Shown here: piece after piece, positions 9,706-61,268 of the stretch
Layout: every line of letters starts with the position of its first letter
Position numbering within the stretch: position 1 is the stretch's first letter
NCBI GenBank assembly: GCA_964475005.1
Contig: CAYYUZ010000003.1
Location: forward strand, 3,500 to 67,499
DNA: 64,000 nucleotides
Reading direction: 5' to 3'
From: an uncultured Spirochaetales bacterium
GTDB lineage: Bacteria; Spirochaetota; Spirochaetia; JABEVK01
Translations under genes and position numbers: made by a program
The notes under the pieces: generated by a model
Told to the model about the DNA's origin: nothing
Databases searched by the model: none
Seen by the model: the letters and a program-made list of their open reading frames with translations, nothing else

Positions 9706-9854
9706 AGGGGAAAGAAAATAGCATAGAGTCGGCACAGGGGGAAGGGCACGCCGTAGCGCTCGGCGAATTGACAAAAGAAAACTGGCGTGTTAGGAAACTG
9801 GCATCACCTTCTCGTGAAGGTTTGTTCTTTGCAAGGAAATTTTCCGCTGATTGA

Positions 9855-11184: not shown

Positions 11185-11205
11185 CCCCCAACCAAGGAGA
11201 ACCCC

Positions 11206-11583
11206 ATGAACATCGACAAGAGCGCGAAATACCTATCCAGCCACGAATGGGCCCGCCCGGAAGGACCCGTTTACGTTTTGGGAATCAGCGACCACGCCCA
11301 GGAGAGCCTAGGCGACGTGGTCTACGTCGAACTGCCAAAGGTTGGCAGCACTTTCAAGAAGGGAGAGGTCTTCGGCGTCGTCGAGTCCGTCAAAGCGGCT
11401 AGCGACCTTTTTTGCCCTCTGAGCGGCGAGGTTGTCGCCGTCAACGAGCACCTCGCCAAGAGCCCGGAATCGGTCAACCGCGACCCCTACGGCGAAGGCT
11501 GGATGGTCAAGATCCGAGCCACCGAGTCCGGTGACTGGGACACCTTGCTTTCAGCACAAGACTACCAGCGGACGGCCTCATGA
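11206..11583 (+). CDS. gcvH: Glycine cleavage system H protein (lipoyl carrier)
   Basis: 125 aa; lipoyl-lysine motif [10 protein letters not shown]; AAGGAG RBS. Confidence 0.9.
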
Positions 11584-33860: not shown

Positions 33861-33915
33861 GATTTTCCCCCACCTGCTTTCAATGTCGGAACTCCTACAT
33901 ATAAGATAAGCATAT

Positions 33916-47278: not shown

Positions 47279-47287
47279 AGCTCTGCG

Positions 47288-48313
47288 ATGAGCAAAGGAT
47301 ACCCAATGAATCTTTCAATTTTCAAAACACTTCTGGCGGCCGCCCTCTGCACCTTTCTAGCCTTGCCGGTTTCGGGACTCACCCTGAAGATCGCCTCGGT
47401 AGCCCCGGAAGCCACCCCGTGGGGCGCCGCTCTCAACAAATTGGCCGCCGACTGGGAACGCATCACCGGCGGGCAGGTCGTGGTCAAGATCTACCACAAC
47501 GGCATCGCCGGCAGCGAGGCCGACATGCTCCGCAAGGTCAAGATCGGTCAGCTTCAAGGCGGCGTGTTCACGAGTTTCGGTTTGAACTCGATCACGCCGG
47601 AAATTCTCACCATGAGCGCTCCCCTGCTTATCCACAACAATGAAGAATTGAACTTTGTCCTCGACAAGAACCGCGCGACCTTCGAAAAAAAGATGCTCGA
47701 CAAGGGTTTTGTCGTGCTGGCCTGGTCGAAGGCCGGCTGGGTGAGGTTCTTCTCGAAGAAGCCCGTCTTCGTCCCCGCGGACCTGAAGAAGCAGAAACTG
47801 TCCACCGACCCCACCGAGGTTGCGCTCTCGGGAGCCTTCACAAGCCTGGGTTACCAGTTGGTGCCGGTCAACCTTTCGGAAACTCTTGTGGCCCTGTCGA
47901 GCGGCATGGTCGATGCCATCTACATCAGCCCGCTGGCGGCAGGCGGCATGCAGTTTTTTGGGGTGGCGAACAACATGGTCAACCTTGACGTCGCCCCGTT
48001 TCTGGGCGCCATTGTGCTGTCAACGTCGGTTTGGAACAAGATTCCCGCCGACCAGCAGGCCAAGCTCATCGAAAACAGCCTTTCGTTGGAGAAGGAACTC
48101 GATTCTCAGGTCGTCGACCTCGAGGCCAAGGCGGTGACTTCGATGCAGAAGTACGGACTGATCGTCAACAACCTGACACCGGCGCAACGACGGCTTTGGG
48201 AGCAAGACGCGAACGAAGGGCTTCCCCGCGCCATGGGAACTTCCTTCGACAAGGAGACCTTCGACCGCATCAGCGGACAGTTGAAAGACTTCCGGGCGGC
48301 ACAGAAGAAATAA
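47288..48313 (+). CDS. TRAP transporter substrate-binding protein (DctP/TatP family)
   Basis: Signal peptide, DctP-family size and pattern. Confidence 0.75.
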   Translation: MSKGYPMNLSIFKTLLAAALCTFLALPVSGLTLKIASVAPEATPWGAALNKLAADWERITGGQVVVKIYHNGIAGSEADMLRKVKIGQLQGGVFTSFGLNSITPEILTMSAPLLIHNNEELNFVLDKNRATFEKKMLDKGFVVLAWSKAGWVRFFSKKPVFVPADLKKQKLSTDPTEVALSGAFTSLGYQLVPVNLSETLVALSSGMVDAIYISPLAAGGMQFFGVANNMVNLDVAPFLGAIVLSTSVWNKIPADQQAKLIENSLSLEKELDSQVVDLEAKAVTSMQKYGLIVNNLTPAQRRLWEQDANEGLPRAMGTSFDKETFDRISGQLKDFRAAQKK

Positions 48314-48460: not shown

Positions 48461-49528
48461 TCAAATTACCGAGAGGATCATCCCGGCGCCCAGGCACTCT
48501 TCGCCGGAATAGAACACCGAGAACTGGCCGGGGGCGATGCCCAGGTCGCCGGTTTCGAGGTGGACCGCCAGACGACTCTGATCGGCGCTCGGCTGGACCC
48601 GGCAGCGCACGAGCTCAGGTCCGTGGCGAAGTTTGCAAGTGAGCGGTTCGTCCGCCGTCGGCGGCCTATGAATCCAAGTCAGCTCGCCAACCACGAAATC
48701 GCTGCGGTTCTGCTCGGCGCGGTGTTCCTGATGACTGACGAGCACCACGTTGGTCTCCACATCCTTGCCGACGACGTACCAGGGGCCGTTTCCTAGTCCT
48801 AGGCCAGATCGCTGCCCGATGGTGTGAAACCAGTACCCCTTGTGCTCCCCCAGTTTCTTGCCGCTCTCGCGATCGACGATGGCTCCTGACTTTTCGCCCA
48901 AGTAGTATTTGACAAAGTCGTTGTACTTGATCTTGCCGAGGAAGCAGATTCCCTGGCTGTCCTTTCGCGCCTGGTTGGCCAAGTTGTACTCGTGAGCCAG
49001 TTCGCGGACGCGGTTCTTGAGGAGTCCCCCAATAGGGAATTCGATCTTGGAGACCTGAGCCTGGCTGAGATGGCTCAAGAAGTAAGTCTGGTCTTTCACG
49101 GGGTCGGGAGAACGCAGGAGGCGGACGGGACCGCCTGATCGGTCGACGACGCCATAGTGTCCGCTAGCGACCCGCTCGAAGGACTCGCCCACCTTGTCGT
49201 AGAAGGCTCCGAACTTGACCCTCTGGTTGCAGAAAATATCGGGAGAGGGAGTGTGCCCCACCCTCAGTTCTTTCAAGGCGTACTCGACGACTTTTTCGTA
49301 GTATTCGGCCTGAAGGGGAACCACCTTCAGGGAAACCCCCGCCGCATCGCACACCGCGCGGGCGTAACCCAAATCCTCTTCCCACGGGCAATCGCCTAAG
49401 TAGCTGAGTTCGTCTTCCAGCCAAATCTTGAGGTAGTAGGCCGTCACATTGTTACGGCCTTGCCGAAGGAGCTCGTAGAGCGCCACGGAACTGTCGACTC
49501 CCCCCGAAAGGAGCACAGCGGTCTTCAT
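48461..49528 (-). CDS. mnmA: tRNA-specific 2-thiouridylase
   Basis: PP-loop SGGVDSS at the N-terminus, 355 aa. Confidence 0.85.
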   Translation of the reverse strand: MKTAVLLSGGVDSSVALYELLRQGRNNVTAYYLKIWLEDELSYLGDCPWEEDLGYARAVCDAAGVSLKVVPLQAEYYEKVVEYALKELRVGHTPSPDIFCNQRVKFGAFYDKVGESFERVASGHYGVVDRSGGPVRLLRSPDPVKDQTYFLSHLSQAQVSKIEFPIGGLLKNRVRELAHEYNLANQARKDSQGICFLGKIKYNDFVKYYLGEKSGAIVDRESGKKLGEHKGYWFHTIGQRSGLGLGNGPWYVVGKDVETNVVLVSHQEHRAEQNRSDFVVGELTWIHRPPTADEPLTCKLRHGPELVRCRVQPSADQSRLAVHLETGDLGIAPGQFSVFYSGEECLGAGMILSVI

Positions 49529-49617
49529 CGCGACACCATATCAAAGACCTCGGTTCAAGGCTACTGCGTCTGCCTACCGACTTTTCGGGCGAACGCGGTT
49601 TAGGTATACTGGAGTGC

Positions 49618-50892
49618 ATGCCTCTCCCTCCCGTTGGAATCCACGACCTGGCCTTGGCCGTTCCTCGAAACCGCATCGACTTGGCGGAGCTTGCGGCGCG
49701 GCGGATCGCCGATGATCCCTCGATGGAGAAGCGGTTGGCCCGCGCGCTTGCAACCACGGGGCAGCGGACCATGCGCTACCCGGGGCCGACGGAGGACACG
49801 GTGACGCTTGCCGCCGAAGCGCTGCGGACGCTCCTGGACGCCAGGCCCGACCTGGATTCCAAAGGGCTCCGGTTTTTGACGTTGGGAACGGAGACAGGAG
49901 TCGATATGAGCAAGGCGGGTTCGTCCTACGTCCTGGGACTCCTGCAGAACTCCGGGTACCCCCTGCCCAGCACACTCTCGACGTTTCAGGTGCAGCACGC
50001 CTGCGCCGGGGGAACCTTGGCGCTGCTGACCCTTGCGGCTTTTCTTCAAGCCGCCGGCCAGGAAGGCGACTGCGCGGCGGTGCTGACCAGCGACATCGCG
50101 CGCTACAAGGCGCCGTCCACGGCCGAGATCACTCAAGGAGCCGGCGCCAGCGCGCTCTGGGTGGCCAGGAATCCCGATCTGCTCGAACTTGACCTGACGA
50201 CGGCGGGGTTCGCCAGCCATGACGTCGACGACTTCTTCCGCCCGCTGGGTTCGACCATTGCCAGGGTCAAAGGGGGCTACTCGCTGGCGTGCTACCACGA
50301 AAGCCTGGACCAGGCGTTTGAAGACCACTGCCGGCGGGCTGGCGTCTCTCCGGCGGACGAGCTGGCCTCTGTGGATGCCTTTTCCCTACACGTTCCCTAC
50401 GCCACGATGCCTGTTTCGGCCATGGAGAAGCTCCTCGAAAAGCACCTGGCCCTCGACGCCGCAGCGTCGCGCACGTTTTTGGAAGAACGCGGTTTCTTCG
50501 CCGGTCTGGAACCAACCGCCCAAATAGGAAACCTCTACACGGGAAGCCTTTATCTGAACCTAGTTTTCGGTCTGGCCGAAAGGGCCAGCGTCTGGGGCGC
50601 GCACACGGCGGGCAAAAAAGTTCTCTTGGCCAGCTACGGTTCGGGCAACACCATGGCCGTCTTTGTCGGGCGTCTGGCGCCCCAGGCCCTGCGGACCATC
50701 TCAAAATGGCGTCTTGAACCGCTTCTGACCGATTTCGACGACCCGTCCTTCGATTTCTATCAGTCCTGGCTCCACACCGAGAAGTCGGCCCACAACTACG
50801 CAGCGCTGTACGCAGCCAATCCGCCGCAACCGGGCCGGTTCGCACTGACGGGCATAAGGGAGGACGGTTACCGTGAGTACAGACTCCTTTGA
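49618..50892 (+). CDS. mvaS: Hydroxymethylglutaryl-CoA synthase
   Basis: 424-aa thiolase-fold enzyme with active-site Cys context (VQHACAGGT); first gene of a mevalonate operon. Confidence 0.7.
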   Translation: MPLPPVGIHDLALAVPRNRIDLAELAARRIADDPSMEKRLARALATTGQRTMRYPGPTEDTVTLAAEALRTLLDARPDLDSKGLRFLTLGTETGVDMSKAGSSYVLGLLQNSGYPLPSTLSTFQVQHACAGGTLALLTLAAFLQAAGQEGDCAAVLTSDIARYKAPSTAEITQGAGASALWVARNPDLLELDLTTAGFASHDVDDFFRPLGSTIARVKGGYSLACYHESLDQAFEDHCRRAGVSPADELASVDAFSLHVPYATMPVSAMEKLLEKHLALDAAASRTFLEERGFFAGLEPTAQIGNLYTGSLYLNLVFGLAERASVWGAHTAGKKVLLASYGSGNTMAVFVGRLAPQALRTISKWRLEPLLTDFDDPSFDFYQSWLHTEKSAHNYAALYAANPPQPGRFALTGIREDGYREYRLL

Positions 50893-51973
50893 CGAGGCGC
50901 GTGACGCCGACCGCGACCTGAAAGGCCGAAAGACCAGGCACATAGAAATCTGCACAAGCCCGGACTACGACCCCGAAGGAGGTTCGGCGCTGTTTGAACA
51001 TTTGAGCTTCCGTCACCGGGCTCTCCCCGAAATGGCGTGGGACGAGGTCAAAACCGAGACAGAGTTCCTGGGCCGCAAGGTCAAGCTGCCCCTGTTCATC
51101 AGCTGCATGACGGGGGGTTCCGACTCGAGCTATGGGATCAACAAAGATCTAGCGAGGGCGGCCCAGAGCGTGGGGGTGCCCGTCGGAATGGGTTCCATCC
51201 GCATCCTGTTTCGGCGACCCGAGGCATTTCCCGATTTCCACCTGAGGCCGCTAGCTCCCGATGTTCCCATTTTGAGCAACCTTGGCGCCCAACAGCTCGT
51301 GGAAGAACGGCTTCGGGACAACTACAAGACTCTGCGTGGCTGGAACGAAAAACTGGAAGTCGATGCCCAGGTGATTCACCTCAACCCCGGGCAAGAGGTC
51401 TACCAAGATCACGGCGACCGCGATTTCCGAGGCATCAAGGACACGTTGGAGGACTTCATCGCCAAGAGCCGGATCCCCGTCATCGTCAAGGAGACCGGCT
51501 TCGGTCTGGCGCCCGACGAGGTTGACTGGCTACTCAAGGTGGGGGCTACAGCGGTAGACCTGGCGGGGGCCGGAGGAACGAACTGGCTGACGGTCGAGGC
51601 CTACCGCCTCGACGAAGTCGCGTTCGAAAGCGCCGAGGCTCTCAGGGAATGGGGGTGGCCAACGGCGCTGCTTCTCGCCGCCGTCGGCCACCGAAAAGGC
51701 CGCATTTTGGCCTCGGGAGGGCTTCGCTCGGGCGTCGATCTGGCCAAAGCCCTGGCCTTGGGCGCGCATTCGGGAGGGTTTGCCCTCCCCGTGATGCGTG
51801 CGGCCAAAGAAGGAGGCGTCGAGGGCGTGGTCTCGCTCTTGTCGGGTTACACCCGCGCCCTCAAGACCGCAATGATCCTCACCTCAAGCCGCACCCTGGC
51901 TGAGCTGCGCAAGGCTCCCCTTGACTACTCGCGCGAGTTTGAATACCGGCTCAAACGATTGGGGAAGGCCTGA
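50873..51973 (+). CDS. fni: Isopentenyl-diphosphate delta-isomerase, type 2 (FMN-dependent)
   Basis: TIM-barrel FMN enzyme; C-terminal SGGLRSGVDLAKALALGA motif. Confidence 0.75.
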   Translation: MSTDSFDEARDADRDLKGRKTRHIEICTSPDYDPEGGSALFEHLSFRHRALPEMAWDEVKTETEFLGRKVKLPLFISCMTGGSDSSYGINKDLARAAQSVGVPVGMGSIRILFRRPEAFPDFHLRPLAPDVPILSNLGAQQLVEERLRDNYKTLRGWNEKLEVDAQVIHLNPGQEVYQDHGDRDFRGIKDTLEDFIAKSRIPVIVKETGFGLAPDEVDWLLKVGATAVDLAGAGGTNWLTVEAYRLDEVAFESAEALREWGWPTALLLAAVGHRKGRILASGGLRSGVDLAKALALGAHSGGFALPVMRAAKEGGVEGVVSLLSGYTRALKTAMILTSSRTLAELRKAPLDYSREFEYRLKRLGKA

Positions 51974-51976
51974 GCC

Positions 51977-53104
51977 GTGGACAAACCCGACCCGCCGCTG
52001 CGAAAGCGCACCATCGAGGAACGTCGGACCTGGTGGCTCGACGCCTGCAAGGCCGACCCGGAGCAGACCCGTTTTTTCAAAGAGTCGGGGTCCGACCTCG
52101 CGCTCGCCGACAGGCTTGTCGAAAACGCCGTCGGCTGGATGCCGATTCCGCTTGGTGTGGTTTCCGGCTTGGTCGTCAACGGAACTTCCTACCAGGTGCC
52201 GTTGGCCACCGAAGAACCTTCTGTGATCGCCGCGGCCAGCGCGGCAGCCTCGGCCGCAGCACGCTGCGGGGGTTTCACCGCCGGGGCCGCTATGCCGGTC
52301 ATGAGGGCGCAGGTTTTTTTGGAAGGGTCTGCCGCCGACGCCGAAGTTAGGCTCGAGGGTGCGCGCGGTGCGCTTGAAGCCGAGGCCAGGCAGCTTCTTA
52401 CGTCGATGGAGCGCCGGGGAGGCGGTCTGCGGGGACTCTCGATGGCGAGGCTTGAGGGTCTGGAAGTGGCGGTCGTGCATCTCGACGTCGACGTGCGCGA
52501 CGCCCTGGGAGCCAATCTTCTCAATACACTGGCCGAGACCCTATCGCCTTCTTTGGAAGCGTATTTGGGGGGAAAGAAGCTGATGGCCATCCTTTCCAAC
52601 GATGCGGGGTTCCGGCCCGCCTGGGCCGAAGTCTGGCTGACGGTCGACCCCGAACGGGCCCGACGAATCGCGCTCGCCTCGGCGGTGGCGCAGATCGATT
52701 CCCAACGGGCCATCACTCACAACAAGGGGATCATGAATGGAATCGCTGCTCTCGCTTTGGCAACGGGCAACGATACAAGGGCCCTGGAAGCCTCCGTCCA
52801 CCAGTTTGCGGGTGCCTCGGGGACGTATCGGGGGCTTACCTCCTGGACCGTCAGCGCCGAAGGACTTCACGGCAGGATCGACCTTCCGCTGGCGCTGGCC
52901 ACCGTTGGCGGTTCGGTGGGCATTCACCCTGCCGCCCAAATGGCCCTGCAACTGCTGGGGAATCCCGATGCGCCCGCTCTGTGCTCGATCGCCGCAGCCC
53001 TGGGACTGGCCCAAAACTATGCGGCTCTCAACGCCTTGGTCGGTGAAGGCATCCAGAAGGGCCACATGGCGTTGCACTCACGCCGGACCCAACGGACCGA
53101 CTAA
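51977..53104 (+). CDS. mvaA: HMG-CoA reductase, class II
   Basis: ENAVGWMPIP (ENxxG), RDALGANLLN (DAMGAN) and ATVGGSVG (GTVGG) motifs. Confidence 0.8.
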   Translation: MDKPDPPLRKRTIEERRTWWLDACKADPEQTRFFKESGSDLALADRLVENAVGWMPIPLGVVSGLVVNGTSYQVPLATEEPSVIAAASAAASAAARCGGFTAGAAMPVMRAQVFLEGSAADAEVRLEGARGALEAEARQLLTSMERRGGGLRGLSMARLEGLEVAVVHLDVDVRDALGANLLNTLAETLSPSLEAYLGGKKLMAILSNDAGFRPAWAEVWLTVDPERARRIALASAVAQIDSQRAITHNKGIMNGIAALALATGNDTRALEASVHQFAGASGTYRGLTSWTVSAEGLHGRIDLPLALATVGGSVGIHPAAQMALQLLGNPDAPALCSIAAALGLAQNYAALNALVGEGIQKGHMALHSRRTQRTD

Positions 53105-53161
53105 GCCGCCACCCGCGAAACTTGGCTTTCGCCGGCGCAATGAATTACCCTTAAGCGTATC

Positions 53162-55039
53162 ATGCCGCCGCCATCCTCCGGCCACGATCCCGATGCCTCC
53201 TACCGATGGAAGAACCTTTTCGACTTCGCCGCCGATGCCATTGTGCTTGGCAGTTCCGAGGGTATCATCCTCGAAGCCAACGACGAGGCCTGCCGTCTCA
53301 CCGGCTACTCCACCGCAGAACTTGTCGGAAGGCCGATCGAAGATTTCTTCAGCCCCGAGGAACAGGCTCGGGTTCCTCTCAACTACCGCGATCTGATGAA
53401 GGGACTGGTCATCCGCAATAGCCGGATGCTGAACCGGCGGGATGGAACCGTCTTTCCCGTCGAAATGAGCACCAAGCTGATGCCCGACGGGGTGTTTCAG
53501 ACCTACGTTCGGGACATCACGGAGTCGCTTCGAGCCGAAAGGGAACTCAAACTCAGCGAGGAGAAATTTGCCAAAGCCTTCCGAACCAGTCCGGACTCAG
53601 TCGCCATCAACCGGCTCTCTGACGGGATGTACCTGGAGATCAACGACGGCTTCGAAGCGATGACAGGCTACACTCCCGCCGAAGTCATCGGGCGACGTTC
53701 CGTCCCTGGCGATTTGGGGATCTGGGTTAAAAAGGAAGACCGCGAACACGTGGTGGCTTTGCTCAATCGGGGAGAACCCGTCCGCGGCTTGGAGGCTCAG
53801 TTCCGCAGAAAAGACGGGGGAATCATCATCGGGTCGTTCTCGGCTCGGCAGATTGAAATTCAGGGAGTCCCGTGTCTGCTGTCGATCACCCGCGACATTA
53901 CCGAAAAGAAGCACACCGAGGAAGCGCTTCGCAACGCCCAGAAGCTCGAATCCTTGGGGGTCTTGGCCGGAGGAATTGCCCACGATTTCAACAACTTGCT
54001 GACGGGTGTCTTTGGATATGTCTCTACCGCCAGAGAACTTATCGATGATGGACACCCTGCGCGCCAAGGATTGGACCGCGCGTTGGACGTCTTTGACCGC
54101 GCTAAGGCCCTGAGTCATCAGCTGCTGACCTTTGCCAAAGGGGGAGCTCCTGTCAAGACGCTCCTTGTGCTTCCGGCTCTTCTCCAGTCGAGTGCCCAGT
54201 TTGCCTTGAGCGGTTCCAACGTCAAAGCGGAGCTTCGGATGGAAACGGGACTCTGGGCCTGCGAAGCCGACGTTTACCAGATCGGGCAGGTCCTCGACAA
54301 CCTCATTCTCAACGCCCGGCAGGCGATGCCCGAAGGTGGAACGGTCACCATTGCGGCCTCGAACGTAGCCGACCCGGCACCGGTGCCGCTTGGCCCTGGG
54401 CCCTGGGTGAAGATCGAGGTCGGGGACAGGGGAGTTGGTATTCCGCAGGCTCACCTTTCCCAGGTCTTTGACCCCTTCTTCACCACCAAGGCGCAGGGAA
54501 CCGGCCTGGGATTGGCGACGGCGTTTTCCATCGTCAAGCGGCACGGGGGCCTCTTGAAGGTCGACTCCGAGGTGGGTAAAGGTTCCAAGTTCACGTTCCA
54601 CCTTCCCGCATCGCTGGACACTGTAGAAACGGCTCCCCAAACGCCTCAGGAAAGGCATGTGTGCAAGGGCAGCCGCATCCTCCTGCTCGACGACGAGCCC
54701 TTCATTCTCGAGATCGGACGGCGGCTCTTGGAGAATTGGGGATGCCAGATCAGCGTCGCGGTCAACGCCTTTGAGGTGCTCAAACTCTACACGGCGTCGC
54801 TGCGCACTGGACCGCGGTTCGACCTTGTCATCCTCGACCTGACGATTCCTGGCGGAGAAGGAGGCGTTCAGATCCTCGAACAACTCAAGCGTCTGGATCC
54901 GCGGGTGAGGGCGGTGGCGTCGAGCGGATACTCGGACGATCCGGTGATGGCTGTTCCCCTACGCTACGGTTTTCTGGGCAGCCTTCCCAAGCCCTACCGC
55001 TCGACCGAGTTTCAAGAGCTCCTGGATCGGCTCCTGTAA
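53162..55039 (+). CDS. Hybrid sensor histidine kinase (2x PAS - HisKA - HATPase - receiver) embedded in the mevalonate operon
   Basis: H-box AHDFNNLL, N/G boxes (LNARQAM, GDRGVGI, GTGLGL), receiver ILLLDDEP...DLVILDLTIPGG. Confidence 0.8.
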   Translation: MPPPSSGHDPDASYRWKNLFDFAADAIVLGSSEGIILEANDEACRLTGYSTAELVGRPIEDFFSPEEQARVPLNYRDLMKGLVIRNSRMLNRRDGTVFPVEMSTKLMPDGVFQTYVRDITESLRAERELKLSEEKFAKAFRTSPDSVAINRLSDGMYLEINDGFEAMTGYTPAEVIGRRSVPGDLGIWVKKEDREHVVALLNRGEPVRGLEAQFRRKDGGIIIGSFSARQIEIQGVPCLLSITRDITEKKHTEEALRNAQKLESLGVLAGGIAHDFNNLLTGVFGYVSTARELIDDGHPARQGLDRALDVFDRAKALSHQLLTFAKGGAPVKTLLVLPALLQSSAQFALSGSNVKAELRMETGLWACEADVYQIGQVLDNLILNARQAMPEGGTVTIAASNVADPAPVPLGPGPWVKIEVGDRGVGIPQAHLSQVFDPFFTTKAQGTGLGLATAFSIVKRHGGLLKVDSEVGKGSKFTFHLPASLDTVETAPQTPQERHVCKGSRILLLDDEPFILEIGRRLLENWGCQISVAVNAFEVLKLYTASLRTGPRFDLVILDLTIPGGEGGVQILEQLKRLDPRVRAVASSGYSDDPVMAVPLRYGFLGSLPKPYRSTEFQELLDRLL

Positions 55040-55077
55040 CAGTTGTCACGACTTGGGGCCGGTGCTAGGGTGACACC

Positions 55078-56037
55078 GTGAAAACCACAGGCCACGCCCT
55101 TGCCGGCCCCAGCTTGGCTCTCATTAAATACTGGGGCAAAAAATCAAGCGTCGACAACACTCCTGCGACCGGCAGTTTGGCGGTGACCCTTGAGGGTCTC
55201 GAATCGCGCACAGTGGCGAATTTCGACGACCGCGACTCTGTCGTGGTCAACGGCCGCGAGGAACCGCCGGCCCGTTTCTCGCCGTTTCTCGACCATTTGC
55301 GCGCGAAACTTGGCCTGGCAGACCAAGGTCTGGAGGTCGCTTCGACAAACAACTTCCCGACTGCAGCGGGTTTGGCCAGTTCCTCCTCGGGATTCGCCGC
55401 GTTGACGGGAGCCGTTGCGGCCTTGGCTGGGCAGGAGCTTGCCCCCGCGGACCTATCGGCGCTTGCTCGTCTTGGCTCGGGCAGCGCGACGCGTTCGGTC
55501 TTCGGGGGGTTCACCGTGTTCGAGGCCGGCGCGGCGGCGGCCCAACCTCTGCACGACGCGTCTTTCTGGGAGGACTTTCGGGTCGTTTTGGCCATTGTCC
55601 GCGAGGAAAGCAAGCCGACCTCCAGCCGCTCCGCGATGGAGTCAAGCCGCCTCACCAGTCCGTACTACGACCGCTGGGTCGAAACCTCGCCGGCCCTTCT
55701 TACCAAGGCCCGTTCGGCCGTCGCCGAGCGCGATTGGTCTCAGCTGGGTCCGCTGATCCGGCAAAGCTACCTGCGGATGTTCTCCACGATGTTCAGCGCC
55801 GAGCCGCCTTTGATCTACTGGCAGCCCGCCAGCCTTGCGTTGATTCAGGCGCTTGAGACCCTCCGCCAGGAAGGTTTCACGGCGTTCGAAACCATGGACG
55901 CCGGACCGCAAGTCAAGATCTTTTGCCCAGAAGACCAATGCGCGGCTCTGGTGGGTGAACTCGGCCGCAGGGTTGGGGGTCTTCGTTTCCTGACAGCGGG
56001 GCCCGGTCCTGGCCTGCGTTTCTGGAGAACCGAATGA
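55078..56037 (+). CDS. mvaD: Diphosphomevalonate decarboxylase
   Basis: LALIKYWGKK and FPTAAGLASSSSGFAAL GHMP motifs. Confidence 0.85.
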   Translation: MKTTGHALAGPSLALIKYWGKKSSVDNTPATGSLAVTLEGLESRTVANFDDRDSVVVNGREEPPARFSPFLDHLRAKLGLADQGLEVASTNNFPTAAGLASSSSGFAALTGAVAALAGQELAPADLSALARLGSGSATRSVFGGFTVFEAGAAAAQPLHDASFWEDFRVVLAIVREESKPTSSRSAMESSRLTSPYYDRWVETSPALLTKARSAVAERDWSQLGPLIRQSYLRMFSTMFSAEPPLIYWQPASLALIQALETLRQEGFTAFETMDAGPQVKIFCPEDQCAALVGELGRRVGGLRFLTAGPGPGLRFWRTE

Positions 56038-57002
56038 GTTCGTTTCGCCTGACGGTTCCGGGCAATCTGCTTCTGGCCGGCGAGTACGCGGTGTTGGAGG
56101 AAGGTGGACTGGGAGCGGCCGTGGCTGTCGAACCCCGTCTCATTGTCACAGTTTTTCCGTCGGACCACTGGGAAATCGTCGGCCGCTGGGTCGGCGGCGA
56201 GGAGGTCTGGAACCCCGAGTCGGCCCTGCCGCCGACCTTCGCGGGCGCGGTTTTTCTTCGAGCGTTGGAACTGCTGGAAAGCCGGGGAGGCGAACGCGAA
56301 CGCCGCTGGCCTCGGCGGATACCAGCCGCCCGCATCGAGCTGGACTCCTCCCGCTTCTTCGACGCCCAGGGCCGCAAGAGGGGTTTCGGCTCGTCTGCGG
56401 CGCTGGCTGCCGGTTTGACAGCAGCCCTGGCGGGTTTGGGCGAACGCGAACTCTCGCCGGTCTTGTACCAAACCGCGGTCGCCGCACACCGCCACGCTCA
56501 AGGCGGCGCCGGTTCGGGCTACGATGTGACTGCAAGCTGGTTTGGTGGGTTCGGGCTTTTTGTGGGGGGCGAGGCCCCCCGCTGGGAACCCGTCGATCCG
56601 ATCTTCCCTCCCCTCGCCGTGTTTTCCGGCCCCGAGACGGTGCGCACGGTGGGCTCCATTGCGCGCTACCGGCAGTGGAAGCTCGACGCGCCCCGGGAGG
56701 TCCGCGACTTTCTCGACGCCAGCAACGCCGCGGTGAACGGCCTGGTGCGGTCGCGCACGCTCGTGTCCCTGCTTGACGCGTGGGCGCAGACGCGCGAATT
56801 TGGTTTGCAAGTCGGCCGACGCATCGGCAGCGACGCGTCTCTTGAGGTGCCCGAAGGCCTGCCGCCCGATACGTTTATCAAGGCCCTCGGCGCCGGAAAC
56901 GAGACGGGTCTTGCCGTTTTGCCCAACGCAGGTGAGGTGGGCACGCTACCGAAAGCTGTGGTCGCCCTCGAAATGGCAAAGGAAGGCGTGAGGTGGGAGT
57001 AG
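56034..57002 (+). CDS. Phosphomevalonate kinase (GHMP type)
   Basis: VPGNLLLAGEYAVLE N-terminus, GFGSSAALAAG ATP-binding loop. Confidence 0.7.
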   Translation: MSSFRLTVPGNLLLAGEYAVLEEGGLGAAVAVEPRLIVTVFPSDHWEIVGRWVGGEEVWNPESALPPTFAGAVFLRALELLESRGGERERRWPRRIPAARIELDSSRFFDAQGRKRGFGSSAALAAGLTAALAGLGERELSPVLYQTAVAAHRHAQGGAGSGYDVTASWFGGFGLFVGGEAPRWEPVDPIFPPLAVFSGPETVRTVGSIARYRQWKLDAPREVRDFLDASNAAVNGLVRSRTLVSLLDAWAQTREFGLQVGRRIGSDASLEVPEGLPPDTFIKALGAGNETGLAVLPNAGEVGTLPKAVVALEMAKEGVRWE

Positions 57003-57886
57003 GCAGGGCGAAGCTCTTGCTCTTTGGCGAGCACGCCGCCGTCTACGGATACCCGGCGGTCGGCCGCTCGCTTCCCTGGTCGCTTACGGTCACTTCGAGC
57101 CCGGCACCGTCGTGGGAGCTTCCGGGTCTGGACCAGCAGAAAAGTATGGTCGGGGCGCTTGTCGAACGGCTGGAATACCTGGCGCTTGAAGCGGGGGGTC
57201 CGCCCCTAGAACCTGGCCGCCTGAAAATCTGTGCGGATGTTCCAGTAGGGAGCGGGTTTGGATCGTCGGCCGCGCTTTGCGCTGCCCTGGTGAACCTCTG
57301 GTTTCCAGACCGGTCAGCCGCCGATAGGGACTGGTTGGCTTGGCGCGGGGAACAGCTCTTCCATGGAACGCCCTCGGGCATCGACACGGCTCTGGCGCTG
57401 CGAGAAGGCTGGTGGGCGCTAGACGCCTCAAAATCCCCAGCCGCCGCTTCTTCCCTTCCTGACCCGGGTCTTGTGCTCGTGGTCGGCGCTGTCGTTCGAG
57501 AAAGAACCACAAAGTTCCTGGTCGCCGACCTAGCCCAACGGCGCGAGCGTGACCCTGCGGCGGCAAAGGCCGTCGAGTCCTTGGGAGAGATTTCGGCCAG
57601 CGCCGTTGCCGCCATGGCGGGACGTCAGACCGAGGCGCTGTTTCCGCTCGTGGTTCAAGCTCGCGAGGCGCTTTGCGCTCTGGGACTAGAGACGACTGCG
57701 CTCCGAGTAGCCATCGACGAGGGGCTTTCCTGCCCCGGTGGCCTTGCGGGAAAACTGTCAGGTGCTGGCGGCGGCGGGGCGTTCTTTCTGGCCTTCGAAA
57801 CCCGCGAAACAGCGCAGGCCGCCCTGCCTCGAATTCGTTCGAGGCTCCCCGAAGCGACCTGGACCGTGGAGCCATGTTTGGTGTAG
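56993..57886 (+). CDS. mvk: Mevalonate kinase
   Basis: KLLLFGEHAAVYG N-terminus, GSGFGSSAALCAAL loop, C-terminal GKLSGAGGGG. Confidence 0.8.
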   Translation: MGVGRAKLLLFGEHAAVYGYPAVGRSLPWSLTVTSSPAPSWELPGLDQQKSMVGALVERLEYLALEAGGPPLEPGRLKICADVPVGSGFGSSAALCAALVNLWFPDRSAADRDWLAWRGEQLFHGTPSGIDTALALREGWWALDASKSPAAASSLPDPGLVLVVGAVVRERTTKFLVADLAQRRERDPAAAKAVESLGEISASAVAAMAGRQTEALFPLVVQAREALCALGLETTALRVAIDEGLSCPGGLAGKLSGAGGGGAFFLAFETRETAQAALPRIRSRLPEATWTVEPCLV

Positions 57887-57948
57887 TCCCCTCCCCCAAA
57901 TGGATTTTGAATGATTCTAGATTTAATACGAAATGGCATTAACTTTTC

Positions 57949-57985
57949 TTGACAAAACTAGTCATCTTCACCCATATTTACTGTC
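57949..57985 (+). promoter_or_regulatory. Candidate sigma-70-type promoter of the cox operon
   Basis: TTGACA at 57949, then a TA-rich -10 candidate (CATATT/TATTTA) about 17-19 nt downstream, ending 1 nt before the coxB ATG. Confidence 0.35.
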
Positions 57986-58795
57986 ATGAAACCCTTCAAC
58001 CCGAAATGGGCCTTGCCGATCCTTTTCGTTCTTGCCGCGTTCCCGGTTTTTTCGGACTCCTTCATTGCGCAGCCCATCACCGAGTACGGCGTCAAGATCG
58101 TCGGCTTGTCGTACATCATGATGGCCCTCTGTATTCTGTTTTTCCTTCTCGTCGTCGGAGTCATCGGCTACTCGCTATGGAAGTTCCGTGCCAAGGGACC
58201 GAACGAAGAGGGTGTGGCCATCCACGGCCACACAGGGCTTGAAATCGTCTGGACCGTGATTCCGGCGCTCATCATGCTGGCGTTGGGTTTGGCCAGCACA
58301 GTGCTTGTTTTCGACCAGCTCAACCCTCCCAAAAAGACGTTGATTGTCAAAGTGACCGGGTACCAGTTCGGCTGGGACTTCGAATACTACCAGGCCGACG
58401 CGTCGCTGAGTTCGGGCGCCTCCGACGTGCAAACCGTCCGCAACATCTGCGGCAACCCGGCCGTCATGGTCAAGATCAAGAGCCTCCACGTGAAAAGCAT
58501 CGATGAGTTCACCATCCCAAAAGATACAGATATTCGGTTTCTGACGAGTTCAAAAGACGTTGTCCACAGTTTCTGGGTCCCTGAATTTCTGATCAAACGC
58601 GACATGGTGCCGGGGTTGGTCGCCGACTTCTGGGTCCATCCGAACCAAACCGGCGACTTTGTGGCCAAGTGTGCGGCCCTGTGCGGCGCCAGCCACGGCC
58701 TTATGGTCGCCAAGGTCCACGTTGTTGACCGGCAGCAATTCCAAACCTGGTTGGCAGCCCAACCCGGGGCTGATCTCAGCCCTCTAGCTAATTGA
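57986..58795 (+). CDS. coxB: Cytochrome c oxidase subunit II (CuA)
   Basis: Signal peptide plus 2 TM helices; CuA ligands H...CAALCGASH..M. Confidence 0.8.
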   Translation: MKPFNPKWALPILFVLAAFPVFSDSFIAQPITEYGVKIVGLSYIMMALCILFFLLVVGVIGYSLWKFRAKGPNEEGVAIHGHTGLEIVWTVIPALIMLALGLASTVLVFDQLNPPKKTLIVKVTGYQFGWDFEYYQADASLSSGASDVQTVRNICGNPAVMVKIKSLHVKSIDEFTIPKDTDIRFLTSSKDVVHSFWVPEFLIKRDMVPGLVADFWVHPNQTGDFVAKCAALCGASHGLMVAKVHVVDRQQFQTWLAAQPGADLSPLAN

Positions 58796-58807
58796 TCGGA
58801 GGATCTT

Positions 58808-60454
58808 GTGAGCGAAACACACACCGCCACCCACGGCCATAACTCTCCCTACCCTGCCTGGACCGAGTGGCTGTTCACCACTGACGCCAAGAAGATCGGC
58901 ATGGTCTACATGATCATGGCCTTCATCTACTTCTTTGTGGGGGGAATCTGCGCAGGGGCCATCCGTATCCAGTTGGCCACACCAACGATGAACTTCGTCG
59001 ACGGGGTCACCTACAACGGACTTGTCTCGATGCACGGCACGGTCATGATCTTCTTGTGGGTCATGCCTTTCATCGCCGGCATCATCAACTTCGTGATGCC
59101 CTTGCAGATCGGCGCCCGCGATATGGCCTTTCCGCGGCTCAACGCCATGGGCTTGTGGCTGTTCAACGCCGGAGCCTTGGTGCTGATGGCCACCTTCCTT
59201 CTTGGCATGCCGCAGGCCGGATGGACCAGCTACGCGCCGCTCTCCACCCTCGACAAGAAAGAGATCGGCATGGACCTTTGGATTCTGGGCATTCAGCTTC
59301 TTGGCGTCAGTTCGATCATGTCGGGCCTCAACTTCATCGTGACCATCTTGCGGCTTCGGGCTCCGGGAATGACGATTTTCCGCATGCCTCTTTTCGTGTG
59401 GTCGAGTCTTGTCGTTGGCTGGCTGATGATTCTGGCCATGCCCGCCATCGCTGTTACCCTGCTTGAAGTCTTGCTGGAGCGGCACTTTGGCTTCACCTTC
59501 TTCGGTCCAGCGCACGGCGGAGACCCCATCCTCTACCAGCACTTGTTCTGGTTCTTCGGGCATCCCGAAGTCTACATTCTGATCATGCCGGCCTTCGGCA
59601 TCATCAGCGAGGTCATTCCCGTGTTCAGCCGCAAGCCGATCTTCGGGTACAAGCTGATGGCGTGGTCGATGATCCTCATCGCGTTCCTCAGCTTTTTGTT
59701 GTGGGCCCACCATATGTTTGCCTCGGGCATGGACCCGCGGCTCACCCTCCCCTTCATGATTCTGACCATGATCATCGGTGTGCCAACCGGCGTGAAGATG
59801 TTCAACTGGATGGCCACGATGTGGAAGGGAAAACTCTACCTCGACACTCCCATGATCTTCGCTCTCGGCTTTCTGATCACCTTCGCCATTGGCGGCTTCG
59901 GCGGCATCATTCTGGCTTCGATTCCCATCGACCTGCACATCACCAACACCTACTTCGTTGTCGGGCATATGCACTATGTGCTCTTCGGCGGCTCGGTCAT
60001 GGCCATTTTTGCCGCGGTGTACTTTTGGTTCCCCAAGATGACGGGGTACAAGCTCAACGAAAAACTGGGCATCTGGCACTTTGTCTTCACCTTCATCGGC
60101 TCGAACGTCACCTTTTTGCCCATGCACTGGCTGGGGATGCTGGGAATGCCGCGGCGGGTCTTGACCTACGCCGCCATCTACGCCAGCGACAACCTGATGG
60201 CGACCATTGGTGGTTTCATCATGGGGCTGGCTCAGCTTATCCTTGTCTGGAACTGGTGGATCACCCTCAAAAAGAAGGAGCGCTGCGAGGAGAATCCCTG
60301 GCGGTCCAAGGGTCTCGAATGGACGCACGCCAGCTCGCCGCCCCGTCCAGACAACTTTGAAGAGATCCCCACGGTAGACTGGGAACCCTACGACTACGGC
60401 CTTCCGGCCCCGGCACAAGCCGCCAAAGTGAAGGAGGCCAAGGCTCATGGCTGA
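58808..60454 (+). CDS. coxA: Cytochrome c oxidase subunit I
   Basis: 548 aa, 12 TM helices, heme-copper oxidase His ligands (WFFGHPEVY, HHMF). Confidence 0.9.
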   Translation: MSETHTATHGHNSPYPAWTEWLFTTDAKKIGMVYMIMAFIYFFVGGICAGAIRIQLATPTMNFVDGVTYNGLVSMHGTVMIFLWVMPFIAGIINFVMPLQIGARDMAFPRLNAMGLWLFNAGALVLMATFLLGMPQAGWTSYAPLSTLDKKEIGMDLWILGIQLLGVSSIMSGLNFIVTILRLRAPGMTIFRMPLFVWSSLVVGWLMILAMPAIAVTLLEVLLERHFGFTFFGPAHGGDPILYQHLFWFFGHPEVYILIMPAFGIISEVIPVFSRKPIFGYKLMAWSMILIAFLSFLLWAHHMFASGMDPRLTLPFMILTMIIGVPTGVKMFNWMATMWKGKLYLDTPMIFALGFLITFAIGGFGGIILASIPIDLHITNTYFVVGHMHYVLFGGSVMAIFAAVYFWFPKMTGYKLNEKLGIWHFVFTFIGSNVTFLPMHWLGMLGMPRRVLTYAAIYASDNLMATIGGFIMGLAQLILVWNWWITLKKKERCEENPWRSKGLEWTHASSPPRPDNFEEIPTVDWEPYDYGLPAPAQAAKVKEAKAHG

Positions 60455-61268
60455 TTCCAAACCGCACTACACCCACCTGGGGCACTCCAACCCCTGGCCC
60501 TTTGTCGCGTCTCTGGGCCTGATGATCGGCGTCTTCGGCCTGCTGTTCACCATGTACAAGAACCCCGTTGGCTGGATGTTTGTGACCATTGGCGGCGGGC
60601 TGTTCCTCATTGCCGTGTTCACCTGGCTAACCACCATGGTCCGGGAAGACATCGGCGAGGCCACCGAACACACAGTTCCCGAGTTCCCCAGCATCGGAAA
60701 GTGGATGGTCGGGTTCCTCATCCTTTCGGAAGTCTTTCTGTTTGGGGCTCTATTCGCCACCTACTTCTACCTGCGCAACCACGACCAGGTTTATACCCAG
60801 AGTCTTTTGCACTACTACGAAGTCAATGGCGAAGTGTTCCAGATTTGGGGTCTTGTGCCCATTCTCAACACAATCTTTCTTGTGTCGAGTTCGGTCACTG
60901 TGCACTTTGCCGAAGAGGCGTTGCGCCACGGCAAGGCCAAAGTCTTTCAGATTTTGATGGCCATTACCGTGGTTCTCGGCGCGTTGTTCGTCGGCGGCCA
61001 GGCGTTTGAGTATTGGAACTTCTCGGTCAACGAGCATTTCACGCCTCAGACAAGCACCTTCGGGGGCACGTTCTACACGCTGACCACCCTGCACGGCATG
61101 CACGTCTTTGCGGGCGTAATCGTGCTCACCAGCCTGCTTGTCGGGTCGTTCTTCAAGAGCCTGAGCCCCAAACGCCACGTGGCGCTGACCGTGGCTTCGG
61201 TGTACTGGCACTTTGTCGACGTGATTTGGATCATCCTGGTGTGCGTGATCTACCTGCGTTTGATTTAG
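60447..61268 (+). CDS. coxC: Cytochrome c oxidase subunit III
   Basis: 273 aa, 7 TM helices, overlaps the coxA stop. Confidence 0.85.
   Translation: MADSKPHYTHLGHSNPWPFVASLGLMIGVFGLLFTMYKNPVGWMFVTIGGGLFLIAVFTWLTTMVREDIGEATEHTVPEFPSIGKWMVGFLILSEVFLFGALFATYFYLRNHDQVYTQSLLHYYEVNGEVFQIWGLVPILNTIFLVSSSVTVHFAEEALRHGKAKVFQILMAITVVLGALFVGGQAFEYWNFSVNEHFTPQTSTFGGTFYTLTTLHGMHVFAGVIVLTSLLVGSFFKSLSPKRHVALTVASVYWHFVDVIWIILVCVIYLRLI

What the first reader, a model, noticed from the sequence alone, without database searches (positions are those of the whole stretch)
49618..57886. Complete mevalonate pathway operon with a hybrid PAS sensor kinase embedded in it
mvaS, type-2 IPP isomerase, class II HMG-CoA reductase, mvaD, a GHMP phosphomevalonate kinase and mevalonate kinase lie in one co-directional block, several with overlapping stop and start codons. 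Between mvaA and mvaD sits a 625-aa hybrid histidine kinase (two PAS domains, HisKA, HATPase, C-terminal receiver) with no cognate DNA-binding response regulator nearby. A signalling protein inside an isoprenoid precursor operon is unusual. It suggests sensory control of, or by, the pathway (redox, oxygen or a lipid intermediate via the PAS domains), or it is simply a passenger gene. The presence of the MVA route rather than the MEP route is itself taxonomically informative.
Basis: partly seen in the sequence, partly recalled or inferred. Interest (0 to 1): 0.55.

Follow-up and report, generated by a model that had tools for sequence, protein, structure and literature searches.

The report
Sensor kinase inserted in spirochaete mevalonate cluster
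An uncultured aerobic spirochaete carries the usual spirochaete mevalonate-pathway gene cluster with an intact cytoplasmic sensor kinase gene inserted in the middle; related lineages keep it there, but close relatives have that spot empty or filled with other genes, so it is a modest lineage-specific curiosity and not a demonstrated pathway regulator.

Summary
Window 49618-57886 (+) encodes mvaS, type-2 idi, class II HMG-CoA reductase, a 625-aa soluble PAS-PAS-HisKA-HATPase-REC hybrid kinase, mvaD, a PMK-like GHMP kinase and mvk. Gaps run from -20 to +57 nt, with no terminator-like site at the kinase flanks. Without the kinase, the gene order equals Borrelia burgdorferi bb0683-bb0688. DnaE and MvaD relatives place the window in an uncultured Spirochaetia lineage. 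The kinase sits in the same mvaA|mvaD slot in three other divergent metagenomic lineages (55-58% identity). Those four kinases and their four operons are each monophyletic, which fits one old insertion inherited vertically, and all catalytic residues are intact. In the nearest other relatives the slot is empty (L091, a JGI contig, Spirochaetaceae MAGs), and in L171 it holds a TetR plus metallo-beta-lactamase cassette. The closest kinases outside the operon group whose context was read (49-51% identity) lie in unrelated neighbourhoods. The PAS domains carry no operon-specific signature, FixL-type heme and LOV flavin signatures are absent, and no response regulator or Hpt lies in the 64 kb. Best reading: a retained, probably co-transcribed insertion at a permissive junction. 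A role in controlling isoprenoid supply or respiration is possible but unshown. "Complete" overstates the case, because no thiolase is in the window. MEP absence could not be tested.

The parts
49529..49617 (.). 89-nt divergent intergenic region between mnmA (- strand, 48461-49528) and mvaS. It is the presumed promoter region of the MVA cluster.
   Evidence: The mnmA(-)/mvaS(+) arrangement is conserved in L083, L091, L171 and the Spirochaetaceae MAGs L001-L003. No sigma-70 consensus was found by the simple scan.
49618..50892 (+). mvaS, HMG-CoA synthase (424 aa)
   Evidence: Pfam PF01154 and PF08540 pass. TIGR01835 scores 284 bits, below its cut-off. 70-76% identity to the gene in the same position in the related loci that include it, L081, L083-L085 and L171.
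50873..51973 (+). idi2/fni, type-2 (FMN) isopentenyl-diphosphate isomerase (366 aa). It overlaps mvaS by 20 nt.
   Evidence: TIGR02151 scores 332 bits, above its 281 cut-off. The same 20-nt overlap is called in L083.
51977..53104 (+). mvaA, class II HMG-CoA reductase (375 aa)
   Evidence: PF00368 scores 278 bits and TIGR00532 scores 302 bits, above its 260 cut-off.
53105..53161 (+). 57-nt gap between mvaA and the kinase. It is the left edge of the variable slot.
   Evidence: No terminator-like or promoter-like site here. The gaps are 33-36 nt in L081, L083 and L087, with an SD-like GGAGG or GGGGG before the kinase ATG.
53162..55039 (+). Soluble hybrid histidine kinase, 625 aa. Domains: PAS1 (about 15-125), PAS2 (about 135-250), DHp with H274, CA (N384, D422xGxG, F436, G446xG), and receiver (D510, D511, D559, S588, K610).
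   Evidence: Pfam and NCBIfam. Catalytic residues are invariant in 28 homologues. There is no transmembrane segment: maximum Kyte-Doolittle 19-residue mean is 1.43. Orthologues P0002-P0004 occupy the same slot. GC3 is 0.72 against 0.67-0.77 for the MVA genes.
55040..55077 (+). 38-nt gap between the kinase and mvaD, with an SD-like TAGGGTG. It is the right edge of the variable slot.
   Evidence: The motif is present in the window and L081 and only partly kept in L083 and L087. No terminator-like site.
55078..56037 (+). mvaD, diphosphomevalonate decarboxylase (319 aa)
   Evidence: TIGR01240 scores 232 bits, above its 171 cut-off, and PF22700 and PF18376 match.
56034..57002 (+). GHMP kinase, probable phosphomevalonate kinase (322 aa). 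It overlaps mvaD by 4 nt.
   Evidence: Only weak PMK-family hits (TIGR01220, 47 bits) and PDB 3k17. The assignment rests on its position, equivalent to Borrelia Pmk bb0687.
56993..57886 (+). mvk, mevalonate kinase (297 aa). It overlaps pmk by 10 nt.
   Evidence: TIGR00549 scores 131 bits, below its 163 cut-off, and GHMP N and C domains match. Position is equivalent to bb0688.
57949..57978 (+). Sigma-70-like promoter (TTGACA, 18 nt, CATATT) in the AT-rich 99-nt gap before coxB. It marks the downstream aa3-type oxidase operon (coxBAC, 57986-61268) as a separate unit.
   Evidence: It was the only promoter-like site in 49300-58100, where shuffles give a mean of 1.2, so on its own it is not statistically distinctive.

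Best explanation
The block is the ancestral spirochaete mevalonate gene cluster, mvaS-idi2-mvaA | mvaD-pmk-mvk. This is the same order as Borrelia burgdorferi bb0683-bb0688.

In an ancestor of one sub-lineage of an uncultured, oxidase-bearing Spirochaetia family, a gene from a large family of cytoplasmic PAS-PAS hybrid histidine kinases was inserted at the junction between the upper half (mvaS, idi2, mvaA) and the lower half (mvaD, pmk, mvk). That junction tolerates cargo: it is empty in the nearest other relatives and holds a TetR plus metallo-beta-lactamase cassette in another.

The kinase has since been inherited with the cluster and kept catalytically intact. It is co-oriented, with gaps of 10-57 nt and no terminator-like site, so it is most likely transcribed together with the MVA genes.

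Inferred mechanism: a cytoplasmic cue read by the PAS domains (not FixL-type heme, not LOV flavin) sets autophosphorylation of H274. The phosphoryl group passes to the kinase's own receiver at D559, and from there to an unlinked Hpt protein and response regulator, or the receiver acts as an internal sink.

What the position gives with reasonable confidence is expression coupled to the MVA genes. Control of the pathway by the kinase is not shown.
For: - Gene identities and spacing.
- Borrelia gene order HMGS-Fni-HMGR-MvaD-Pmk-Mvk: PMC3364977.
- Spirochaete origin: the nearest named DnaE hits are a Spirochaetales MAG at 68% and Marispirochaeta at 54%. Named MvaD relatives are Spirochaetia and Spirochaetales MAGs. 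The nearest GTDB mvaA loci are Spirochaetaceae MAGs with the same mnmA(-)-mvaS-idi2-mvaA-mvaD-pmk-mvk synteny.
- Same slot in L081/82, L083-85 and L087/88: kinase identity 55-58%, against 68-84% for mvaS, idi2, mvaA, mvaD and pmk and 49-59% for mvk.
- The four kinase-bearing operons are monophyletic, 200/200 NJ bootstraps on 1267 columns of mvaA+mvaD+pmk+mvk. L171 is their sister and L091 branches next.
- The four in-operon kinases are monophyletic among 28 homologues, 100/100 bootstraps.
- Slot state elsewhere: empty in L091, in JGI 3300047160 (mvaA and mvaD overlap by 4 nt), in L002, L003 and L151, and in L001, where mvaD fell below my coverage filter but the 1.3-kb gap leaves no room for a kinase. 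TetR(-)+MBL(+) in L171.
- The closest kinases outside the operon group whose context was read, P0005 and P0010 (49-51% identity), are in unrelated contexts.
- All H, N, G1, F and G2 box residues and the receiver residues are invariant.
- No terminator-like site in the flanking gaps, and SD-like motifs before the kinase and mvaD starts.
- GC3 of the kinase is not foreign, and no flanking repeats were found.
Against: - Co-transcription is inferred from spacing only. In B. burgdorferi, RT-PCR did not detect transcripts spanning adjacent MVA genes.
- Long retention in one slot next to terminal-oxidase genes, together with a second independent arrival of a regulator (TetR) in the same slot, could mean the position is selected for regulation.
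- The single-gene MvaD tree places about 30 further MvaD clusters among the four kinase-bearing loci, while only four full-length kinase orthologue clusters appeared in the top hits. The kinase may therefore have been lost repeatedly, or the 'one gain' picture may be too simple. Those junctions could not be inspected.
Confidence: 0.55

Rival explanations
1. Dedicated regulator. The kinase senses cellular redox, oxygen or energy state through its PAS domains. Through an unlinked phosphorelay it tunes expression of the MVA genes and the adjacent terminal oxidase. This would match isoprenoid supply (undecaprenyl phosphate, quinone side chains, and farnesyl groups for heme O and heme A) to respiratory demand.
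For: - The kinase is kept intact in the same slot across lineages whose MVA enzymes have diverged by about 25%.
- In every related locus that extends past mvk, heme-copper-oxidase-related genes follow the MVA cluster: coxBAC in the window, L083, L091 and L171; a cyo-like COX2/COX1/COX3/COX4_pro set in L081; SCO1/SenC in L087.
- A different regulator family (TetR) arrived independently in the same slot in L171.
- Precedent: the unlinked two-component system CroRS of Enterococcus faecalis raises MVA genes and lowers cytochrome bd (PMC10952268).
Against: - No response regulator or Hpt lies in the 64 kb or in the fetched parts of the related contigs.
- The PAS domains are no better conserved among operon copies than against kinases outside the operon group: PAS1 41-46% against 43-50%, PAS2 61-63% against 61%. 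Clade-specific positions number 1 in PAS1 and 0 in PAS2.
- FixL heme His and LOV Cys are absent, and there is no CxxCH motif.
- Close relatives run the same cluster and the same oxidase neighbourhood without the kinase.
- The TetR in L171 is divergently paired with the MBL gene, the usual self-contained arrangement, so it is not evidence for MVA control.
Confidence: 0.3
2. Pathway-state sensor acting through an enzyme partner or a pathway metabolite. The kinase reads MVA flux directly, either by binding an intermediate (mevalonate, a phosphorylated intermediate, IPP/DMAPP, HMG-CoA/CoA) in a PAS pocket, or by forming a complex with a neighbouring enzyme.
For: - Its position is exactly between the rate-limiting HMG-CoA reductase and the lower pathway.
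- Precedent for a hybrid kinase whose signal depends on a physically associated metabolic enzyme: YiaZ-YiaY of Pseudomonas putida, responsive to isoprenol (PMC12551699).
Against: - The PAS2 sequence is shared at about 61% with the three kinases from outside the operon group that were compared domain by domain; the two of them whose context was read sit in non-isoprenoid neighbourhoods, and a Geopsychrobacter kinase shares 55%.
- No operon-specific PAS residues.
- No ligand signature was identified.
Confidence: 0.08
3. Inert remnant. The kinase is a neutral hitch-hiker on its way to decay, kept only because precise excision from an essential gene cluster is unlikely.
For: - It evolves faster than most of its neighbours: 55-58% identity against 68-84% for mvaS, idi2, mvaA, mvaD and pmk (mvk, at 49-59%, is as divergent).
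- It is apparently absent from most relatives.
Against: - The reading frame is full length in all four lineages despite about 43% divergence.
- Every catalytic and phospho-acceptor residue is invariant.
- RBS-like motifs are retained.
Confidence: 0.05

Closest known systems
Borrelia burgdorferi mevalonate pathway locus bb0683-bb0688 (HMGS, Fni, HMGR, MvaD, Pmk, Mvk)
   Same: It has the same six enzymes in the same order and orientation. The thiolase is unlinked. It is a spirochaete host (PMC3364977).
   Different: Borrelia has no gene between HMGR and MvaD. Here a 1.9-kb hybrid kinase gene sits there. The window organism also has an aa3-type oxidase operon immediately downstream. In Borrelia, RT-PCR did not detect transcripts spanning adjacent genes, whereas here several genes overlap.
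CckA-like / 'PAS domain S-box' cytoplasmic hybrid histidine kinases (best NCBIfam hits PRK13557 and CckA; PDB relatives include the YF1 LOV-FixL chimera 4gcz, ZraS 9jfj, CckA 5idj/5idm and Leptospira LvrB 8vc9)
   Same: It shares the DHp H-box GGIAHDFNNLL, the N, G1, F and G2 boxes, a C-terminal receiver and N-terminal tandem PAS domains.
   Different: No equivalog cut-off is reached: 247 bits against 631 for PRK13557, and 216 against 1000 for CckA. It is therefore not CckA, FixL, AtoS or LvrB. It has no transmembrane region. The heme His of FixL and the flavin Cys of LOV are replaced by Val and Ser.
CroRS two-component control of mevalonate genes in Enterococcus faecalis
   Same: A histidine-kinase system that raises MVA pathway genes and lowers a terminal oxidase, balancing isoprenoid use between cell envelope and respiration (PMC10952268). 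It is the nearest known example of what a regulatory role here would look like.
   Different: CroS is a membrane kinase with an adjacent cognate regulator, CroR, encoded away from the MVA genes. Here the kinase is a soluble hybrid kinase without a linked regulator, encoded inside the cluster. No regulatory link has been shown.
YiaZ hybrid kinase and YiaY alcohol dehydrogenase (isoprenol-responsive) of Pseudomonas putida
   Same: A hybrid kinase with a PAS domain whose signalling depends on a metabolic enzyme partner and responds to an isoprenoid-derived alcohol (PMC12551699).
   Different: No homology beyond the shared domains was tested, and the pathway context is different. It serves only as a mechanistic precedent for the most novel reading.

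Membership tests
Bacterial mevalonate pathway gene cluster (classical DPMD route) | HMG-CoA synthase present | tested here: met
   PF01154 and PF08540 are above their cut-offs. TIGR01835 gives the best equivalog hit, but at 284 bits it is below its 360 cut-off.
Bacterial mevalonate pathway gene cluster (classical DPMD route) | HMG-CoA reductase, class II | tested here: met
   TIGR00532 scores 302 bits, above its 260 cut-off. The class I models score only 35-52 bits.
Bacterial mevalonate pathway gene cluster (classical DPMD route) | Mevalonate kinase, phosphomevalonate kinase and diphosphomevalonate decarboxylase all present | tested here: inconclusive
   mvaD passes its equivalog cut-off (232 against 171). 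mvk is sub-threshold (131 against 163). PMK is only weakly similar (47 against 166; PDB 3k17 at E = 2.5e-6). Both assignments are supported by gene order identical to Borrelia.
Bacterial mevalonate pathway gene cluster (classical DPMD route) | Acetoacetyl-CoA thiolase, needed for a 'complete' pathway from acetyl-CoA | tested here: not met
   No thiolase was found among the window ORFs scanned. It is presumably encoded elsewhere, as BB0109 is in Borrelia.
Bacterial mevalonate pathway gene cluster (classical DPMD route) | IPP isomerase, type 2 | tested here: met
   TIGR02151 scores 332 bits, above its 281 cut-off.
MVA-only organism (no MEP pathway) | Absence of dxs, dxr and ispD-H from the genome | not testable with these tools
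   None were found in the 64-kb window, but the rest of the genome is not available. Borrelia lacks MEP.
Hybrid sensor histidine kinase (HisKA type) | Phospho-accepting His in a DHp H-box | tested here: met
   H274 lies in GGIAHDFNNLL and is invariant in 28 homologues. Pfam HisKA scores 24.5 bits, just below its 26.9 cut-off.
Hybrid sensor histidine kinase (HisKA type) | ATP-binding CA domain with N, G1, F and G2 boxes | tested here: met
   HATPase_c scores 81.7 bits. N384, D422xGxG, F436 and G446xGLGLA are invariant.
Hybrid sensor histidine kinase (HisKA type) | Fused receiver with an acidic pocket, phospho-acceptor Asp, Ser/Thr and Lys | tested here: met
   Response_reg scores 52.5 bits. D510, D511, D559 and S588 are invariant, and K610 is at least 90% conserved.
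Hybrid sensor histidine kinase (HisKA type) | Downstream Hpt and response-regulator partners | tested here: not met
   None in the window in any frame for REC. None among the ORFs that were Pfam-scanned, for REC or Hpt. None in the fetched parts of the related contigs. The partners, if any, are unlinked.
FixL-type heme PAS oxygen sensor | Proximal heme-ligating His (BjFixL His200) in the F-alpha helix | tested here: not met
   In the phmmer alignment to 1dp6, the His of 'SRHDSY' aligns to a Val in PAS1. I identified that His as His200 from memory of the FixL literature. H196 in PAS2 is not conserved among orthologues. NF041777 FixL scores 121 bits against a cut-off of 850.
LOV (flavin) PAS photosensor | GXNCRFLQ motif with the adduct-forming Cys | tested here: not met
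   In the alignment to YtvA 2pr5, 'KNCRFLQG' aligns to 'RRSVPGDLG', so Cys is replaced by Ser. There is no NCRF motif in the protein.
CckA cell-cycle kinase | Equivalog-level similarity | tested here: not met
   NF046020 scores 216 bits and NF046026 scores 175 bits, each against a cut-off of 1000.

The most novel reading that the evidence does not exclude
The kinase is a native sensor of mevalonate-pathway state. It would read flux either through a PAS-bound intermediate or through a complex with the neighbouring HMG-CoA reductase or decarboxylase, and relay that to genes for respiration and envelope lipid carriers. That would be the first natural bacterial signalling protein dedicated to MVA flux, and a ready-made biosensor part.
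Probability: 0.08. Interest if true: 0.7.

Novelty: new variant of a known kind. Interest (0 to 1): 0.3.

Why it matters
Regulation of the bacterial mevalonate pathway is poorly understood. Known inputs, such as CroRS in Enterococcus and acetate in Borrelia, act from unlinked loci.

A sensor kinase kept inside the cluster for a long evolutionary time gives a concrete candidate to test for coupling between isoprenoid supply and respiration in aerobic spirochaetes.

The comparative result also gives a caution. The mvaA|mvaD junction is a variable slot: empty, kinase, or TetR+MBL. Position inside a metabolic cluster is therefore not evidence of function on its own.

The organism is uncultured, and the evidence favours a retained insertion without demonstrated pathway specificity, so the practical impact is modest.

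Tried and rejected
- **Recent horizontal insertion: rejected.** GC3 of the kinase matches its neighbours. No flanking direct or inverted repeats exceed chance-like short matches. Orthologues are deeply diverged but monophyletic.
- **FixL-type heme, LOV flavin and c-type heme PAS: rejected** by alignment and motif checks. The similarity of PAS1 to the MmoS FAD-PAS (3ewk) splits into two weak stretches (i-Evalue about 0.05 each), so it is uninformative.
- **Partner search.** There is no receiver or kinase domain in any other frame of the window. There is no Hpt or response regulator among the Pfam-scanned ORFs.
- **Rfam.** The only match in the window is a glycine riboswitch. No RNA element lies in or near the cluster.
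- **Collection scans.** They returned only one close relative (L091) and did not return the window's own contig. They are therefore weak for estimating prevalence.
- **Provenance and taxon name.** The exact look-up shows an unnamed NCBI contig of 72,745 bp. The look-up of DnaE failed, and the mvaA look-up gave only ENA and Logan fragments.
- **P0137 look-up** failed, and L172 did not reach the junction.
- **dN/dS** was not attempted. At 53-58% protein identity, synonymous sites are saturated.
- **Structure prediction** was not run. A model would not have identified the PAS ligand.

Full report
**1. Observation**

Pfam and NCBIfam assign them as follows:
- HMG-CoA synthase
- type-2 IPP isomerase (TIGR02151, 332 bits, above cut-off)
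- class II HMG-CoA reductase (TIGR00532, 302 bits, above cut-off)
- a 625-aa protein with two PAS domains, an H-box, HATPase_c and a receiver
- diphosphomevalonate decarboxylase (TIGR01240, 232 bits, above cut-off)
- a GHMP kinase whose best, but weak, hits are phosphomevalonate kinases
- a mevalonate kinase (TIGR00549, 131 bits, below cut-off)

Successive genes are separated by -20, +3, +57, +38, -4 and -10 nt.

The cluster is flanked upstream by mnmA on the opposite strand. Downstream lies coxBAC, across a 99-nt AT-rich gap that holds the only sigma-70-like site in the region.

No thiolase is in the window, so 'complete' holds only from acetoacetyl-CoA onward.

No other receiver or kinase domain exists in any frame of the 64 kb. 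No response regulator, Hpt or MEP gene was found among the remaining ORFs that I scanned against Pfam. About ten called ORFs of 104-273 aa and all ORFs under 90 aa were not scanned.

**2. Whose genome**

The window's DnaE has 80-89% relatives only in metagenomes. Its nearest named relatives are a Spirochaetales MAG (68%), Marispirochaeta aestuarii (54%) and Spirochaeta cellobiosiphila (53%). Named MvaD relatives are Spirochaetia and Spirochaetales MAGs.

The best mvaA loci among GTDB species representatives are Spirochaetaceae MAGs with the same mnmA(-)-mvaS-idi2-mvaA-mvaD-pmk-mvk synteny.

The window also carries a TatT-type TRAP system and two MptE-like genes. I recall the TatT component as a spirochaete feature, but I did not test that recollection.

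The gene order is that of Borrelia burgdorferi bb0683-bb0688 (PMC3364977). Spirochaetes are one of the bacterial phyla where MVA genes are concentrated (PMC6107057).

The MVA cluster is therefore an inherited spirochaete feature and not a recent acquisition. Whether the genome also has MEP genes cannot be told from one window.

**3. The kinase in relatives**

The three closest homologues of the kinase in a 5.8-billion-protein collection are P0002, P0003 and P0004, at 55-58% identity. Each lies between mvaA and mvaD in metagenomic contigs (L081/82, L083-85, L087/88), with flanking gaps of 10-36 nt.

In those contigs mvaS, idi2, mvaA, mvaD and pmk are 68-84% identical to the window's, and mvk is 49-59%.

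Two neighbour-joining trees support one old insertion followed by vertical descent:
- On 1267 columns of mvaA+mvaD+pmk+mvk, the four kinase-bearing loci form a clade in 200 of 200 bootstraps. L171 is their sister and L091 branches next.
- Among 28 kinase homologues, the four in-operon kinases form a clade in 100 of 100 bootstraps.

The kinase's GC3 (0.72) is like that of the MVA genes (0.67-0.77). No flanking repeats stand out.

**4. The slot is variable**

- L091 (mnmA 77%, coxA 87% to the window) has identical synteny, but mvaD starts 33 nt after mvaA.
- A 35-kb JGI contig from the same CoxA 90% cluster has mvaA and mvaD overlapping by 4 nt.
- L171 has a divergent TetR gene and a metallo-beta-lactamase-fold gene in the same junction.
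- L002, L003 and L151 have the slot empty. L001 has only a 1.3-kb gap between mvaA and pmk, which fits mvaD and leaves no room for a kinase.

The next-best kinase homologues whose context I read, P0005 and P0010 (49-51% identity), sit in unrelated neighbourhoods.

A single-gene MvaD tree places about 30 additional MvaD clusters among the four kinase-bearing ones. Only four full-length kinase orthologue clusters were seen in the top hits. This suggests the kinase is patchy even there.

**5. The protein**

It has no transmembrane segment. H274, N384, D422xGxG, F436, G446xG, D510/D511, D559 and S588 are invariant across 28 homologues, and K610 is at least 90% conserved. It is therefore a competent hybrid kinase.

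It reaches no NCBIfam equivalog cut-off, so it is not CckA, FixL, AtoS or LvrB.

Identity of the window kinase to other kinases, by domain:

| Domain | In-operon orthologues | Kinases outside the operon group |
|---|---|---|
| PAS1 | 41-46% | 43-50% |
| PAS2 | 61-63% | 61% |

Only 9 positions are specific to the operon copies. One is in PAS1 and none is in PAS2.

The FixL heme-ligating His aligns to Val, and the LOV Cys aligns to Ser. There is no CxxCH motif. The cue is unknown, and nothing marks it as specific to isoprenoid metabolism.

**6. Interpretation**

The best-supported reading is a functional, long-retained kinase gene inserted at a permissive junction between the upper and lower halves of the spirochaete MVA cluster. 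It is probably co-transcribed with them and signals to unlinked partners.

Shown:
- the gene content
- the conservation of the slot in four lineages
- its absence or replacement in the nearest other relatives
- the intact catalytic residues
- the absence of linked partners
- the absence of heme-FixL and LOV signatures

Inferred:
- co-transcription, from spacing and the lack of terminators. In Borrelia, RT-PCR did not detect transcripts spanning adjacent MVA genes.
- the phosphorelay
- any physiological role

The main rival is a role in matching isoprenoid supply to respiration. Two points suggest it. Heme-copper-oxidase genes always follow the cluster in the loci that extend that far. CroRS of E. 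faecalis co-regulates MVA genes and cytochrome bd. Three points weigh against it: the unspecialised sensor domains, the relatives that lack the kinase, and the self-contained look of the TetR+MBL cassette.

A direct flux-sensing role has a loose precedent in the YiaZ-YiaY complex. It is the most novel reading that remains open, but I rate it unlikely.

**7. Novelty and verdict**

Six full-text searches returned no description of a kinase embedded in a bacterial MVA cluster. The components are ordinary family members. The arrangement is a new variant of a known cluster, confined to a small uncultured lineage.

Interest is modest at 0.3. It is a tidy example of a variable slot inside a conserved metabolic cluster and a testable candidate regulator. 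Nothing here yet contradicts expectation.

Noticed in passing
window 57986-61268; L081 14895-18782; L083 14793-18047; L087 6155-6913; L091 14698-17941; L171 9176-12479: In every related locus that extends past mvk, the mevalonate cluster is followed directly by heme-copper-oxidase genes. These are aa3-type coxBAC in most loci, a cyo-like four-gene set in L081 (CoxA only 41% identical), and SCO1/SenC in L087. UbiA-family and SCO1 genes lie further on in L171 and L172. This could reflect a functional link, since heme O and heme A need a farnesyl group and quinones need prenyl chains, or it could be inherited synteny.
   Followed up: partly
L171 4826-6355: A divergently arranged TetR-family gene and a metallo-beta-lactamase-fold gene (HxHxDH motif) occupy exactly the mvaA|mvaD junction that holds the kinase in the window. 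This is a second, independent cargo at the same site.
   Followed up: partly
window 9852-9971 (+), upstream of gcvT-gcvH-gcvP at 10075-14396: A glycine riboswitch aptamer (RF00504, 51 bits) precedes a glycine cleavage operon with a single fused 938-aa GcvP. This is the expected arrangement.
   Followed up: no
window 44394-48313 (+): A TatT (TRAP T-component, PF16811) gene is followed by a fused DctQ-DctM permease and a DctP-type binding protein. This looks like a TPAT-type TRAP transporter, which I recall from spirochaetes, and it fits the taxonomic assignment.
   Followed up: no
window 8-2790 (+): Two adjacent MptE-like (PF01973) genes of 401 and 526 aa lie here. Function was not examined.
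   Followed up: no
window 3323-4582 (+), 23165-24793 (+), 32799-34139 (-): Three sizeable ORFs (419, 542 and 446 aa) with coding-like GC3 have no Pfam match at E <= 1e-5.
   Followed up: no
L151 104-6809; L096 2973-9243: In more distant relatives the upper genes idi2 and mvaS are inverted relative to mvaA-mvaD-pmk-mvk. The cluster therefore has a second breakpoint, between idi2 and mvaA, in other lineages.
   Followed up: no
window 53141-53155: The ATG that aligns with the kinase start of the three orthologues opens only a 4-codon frame in the window (ATG AAT TAC CCT TAA). The window's kinase instead starts at 53162, without an obvious Shine-Dalgarno motif. The 5' end of the gene has been remodelled in this lineage.
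   Followed up: partly
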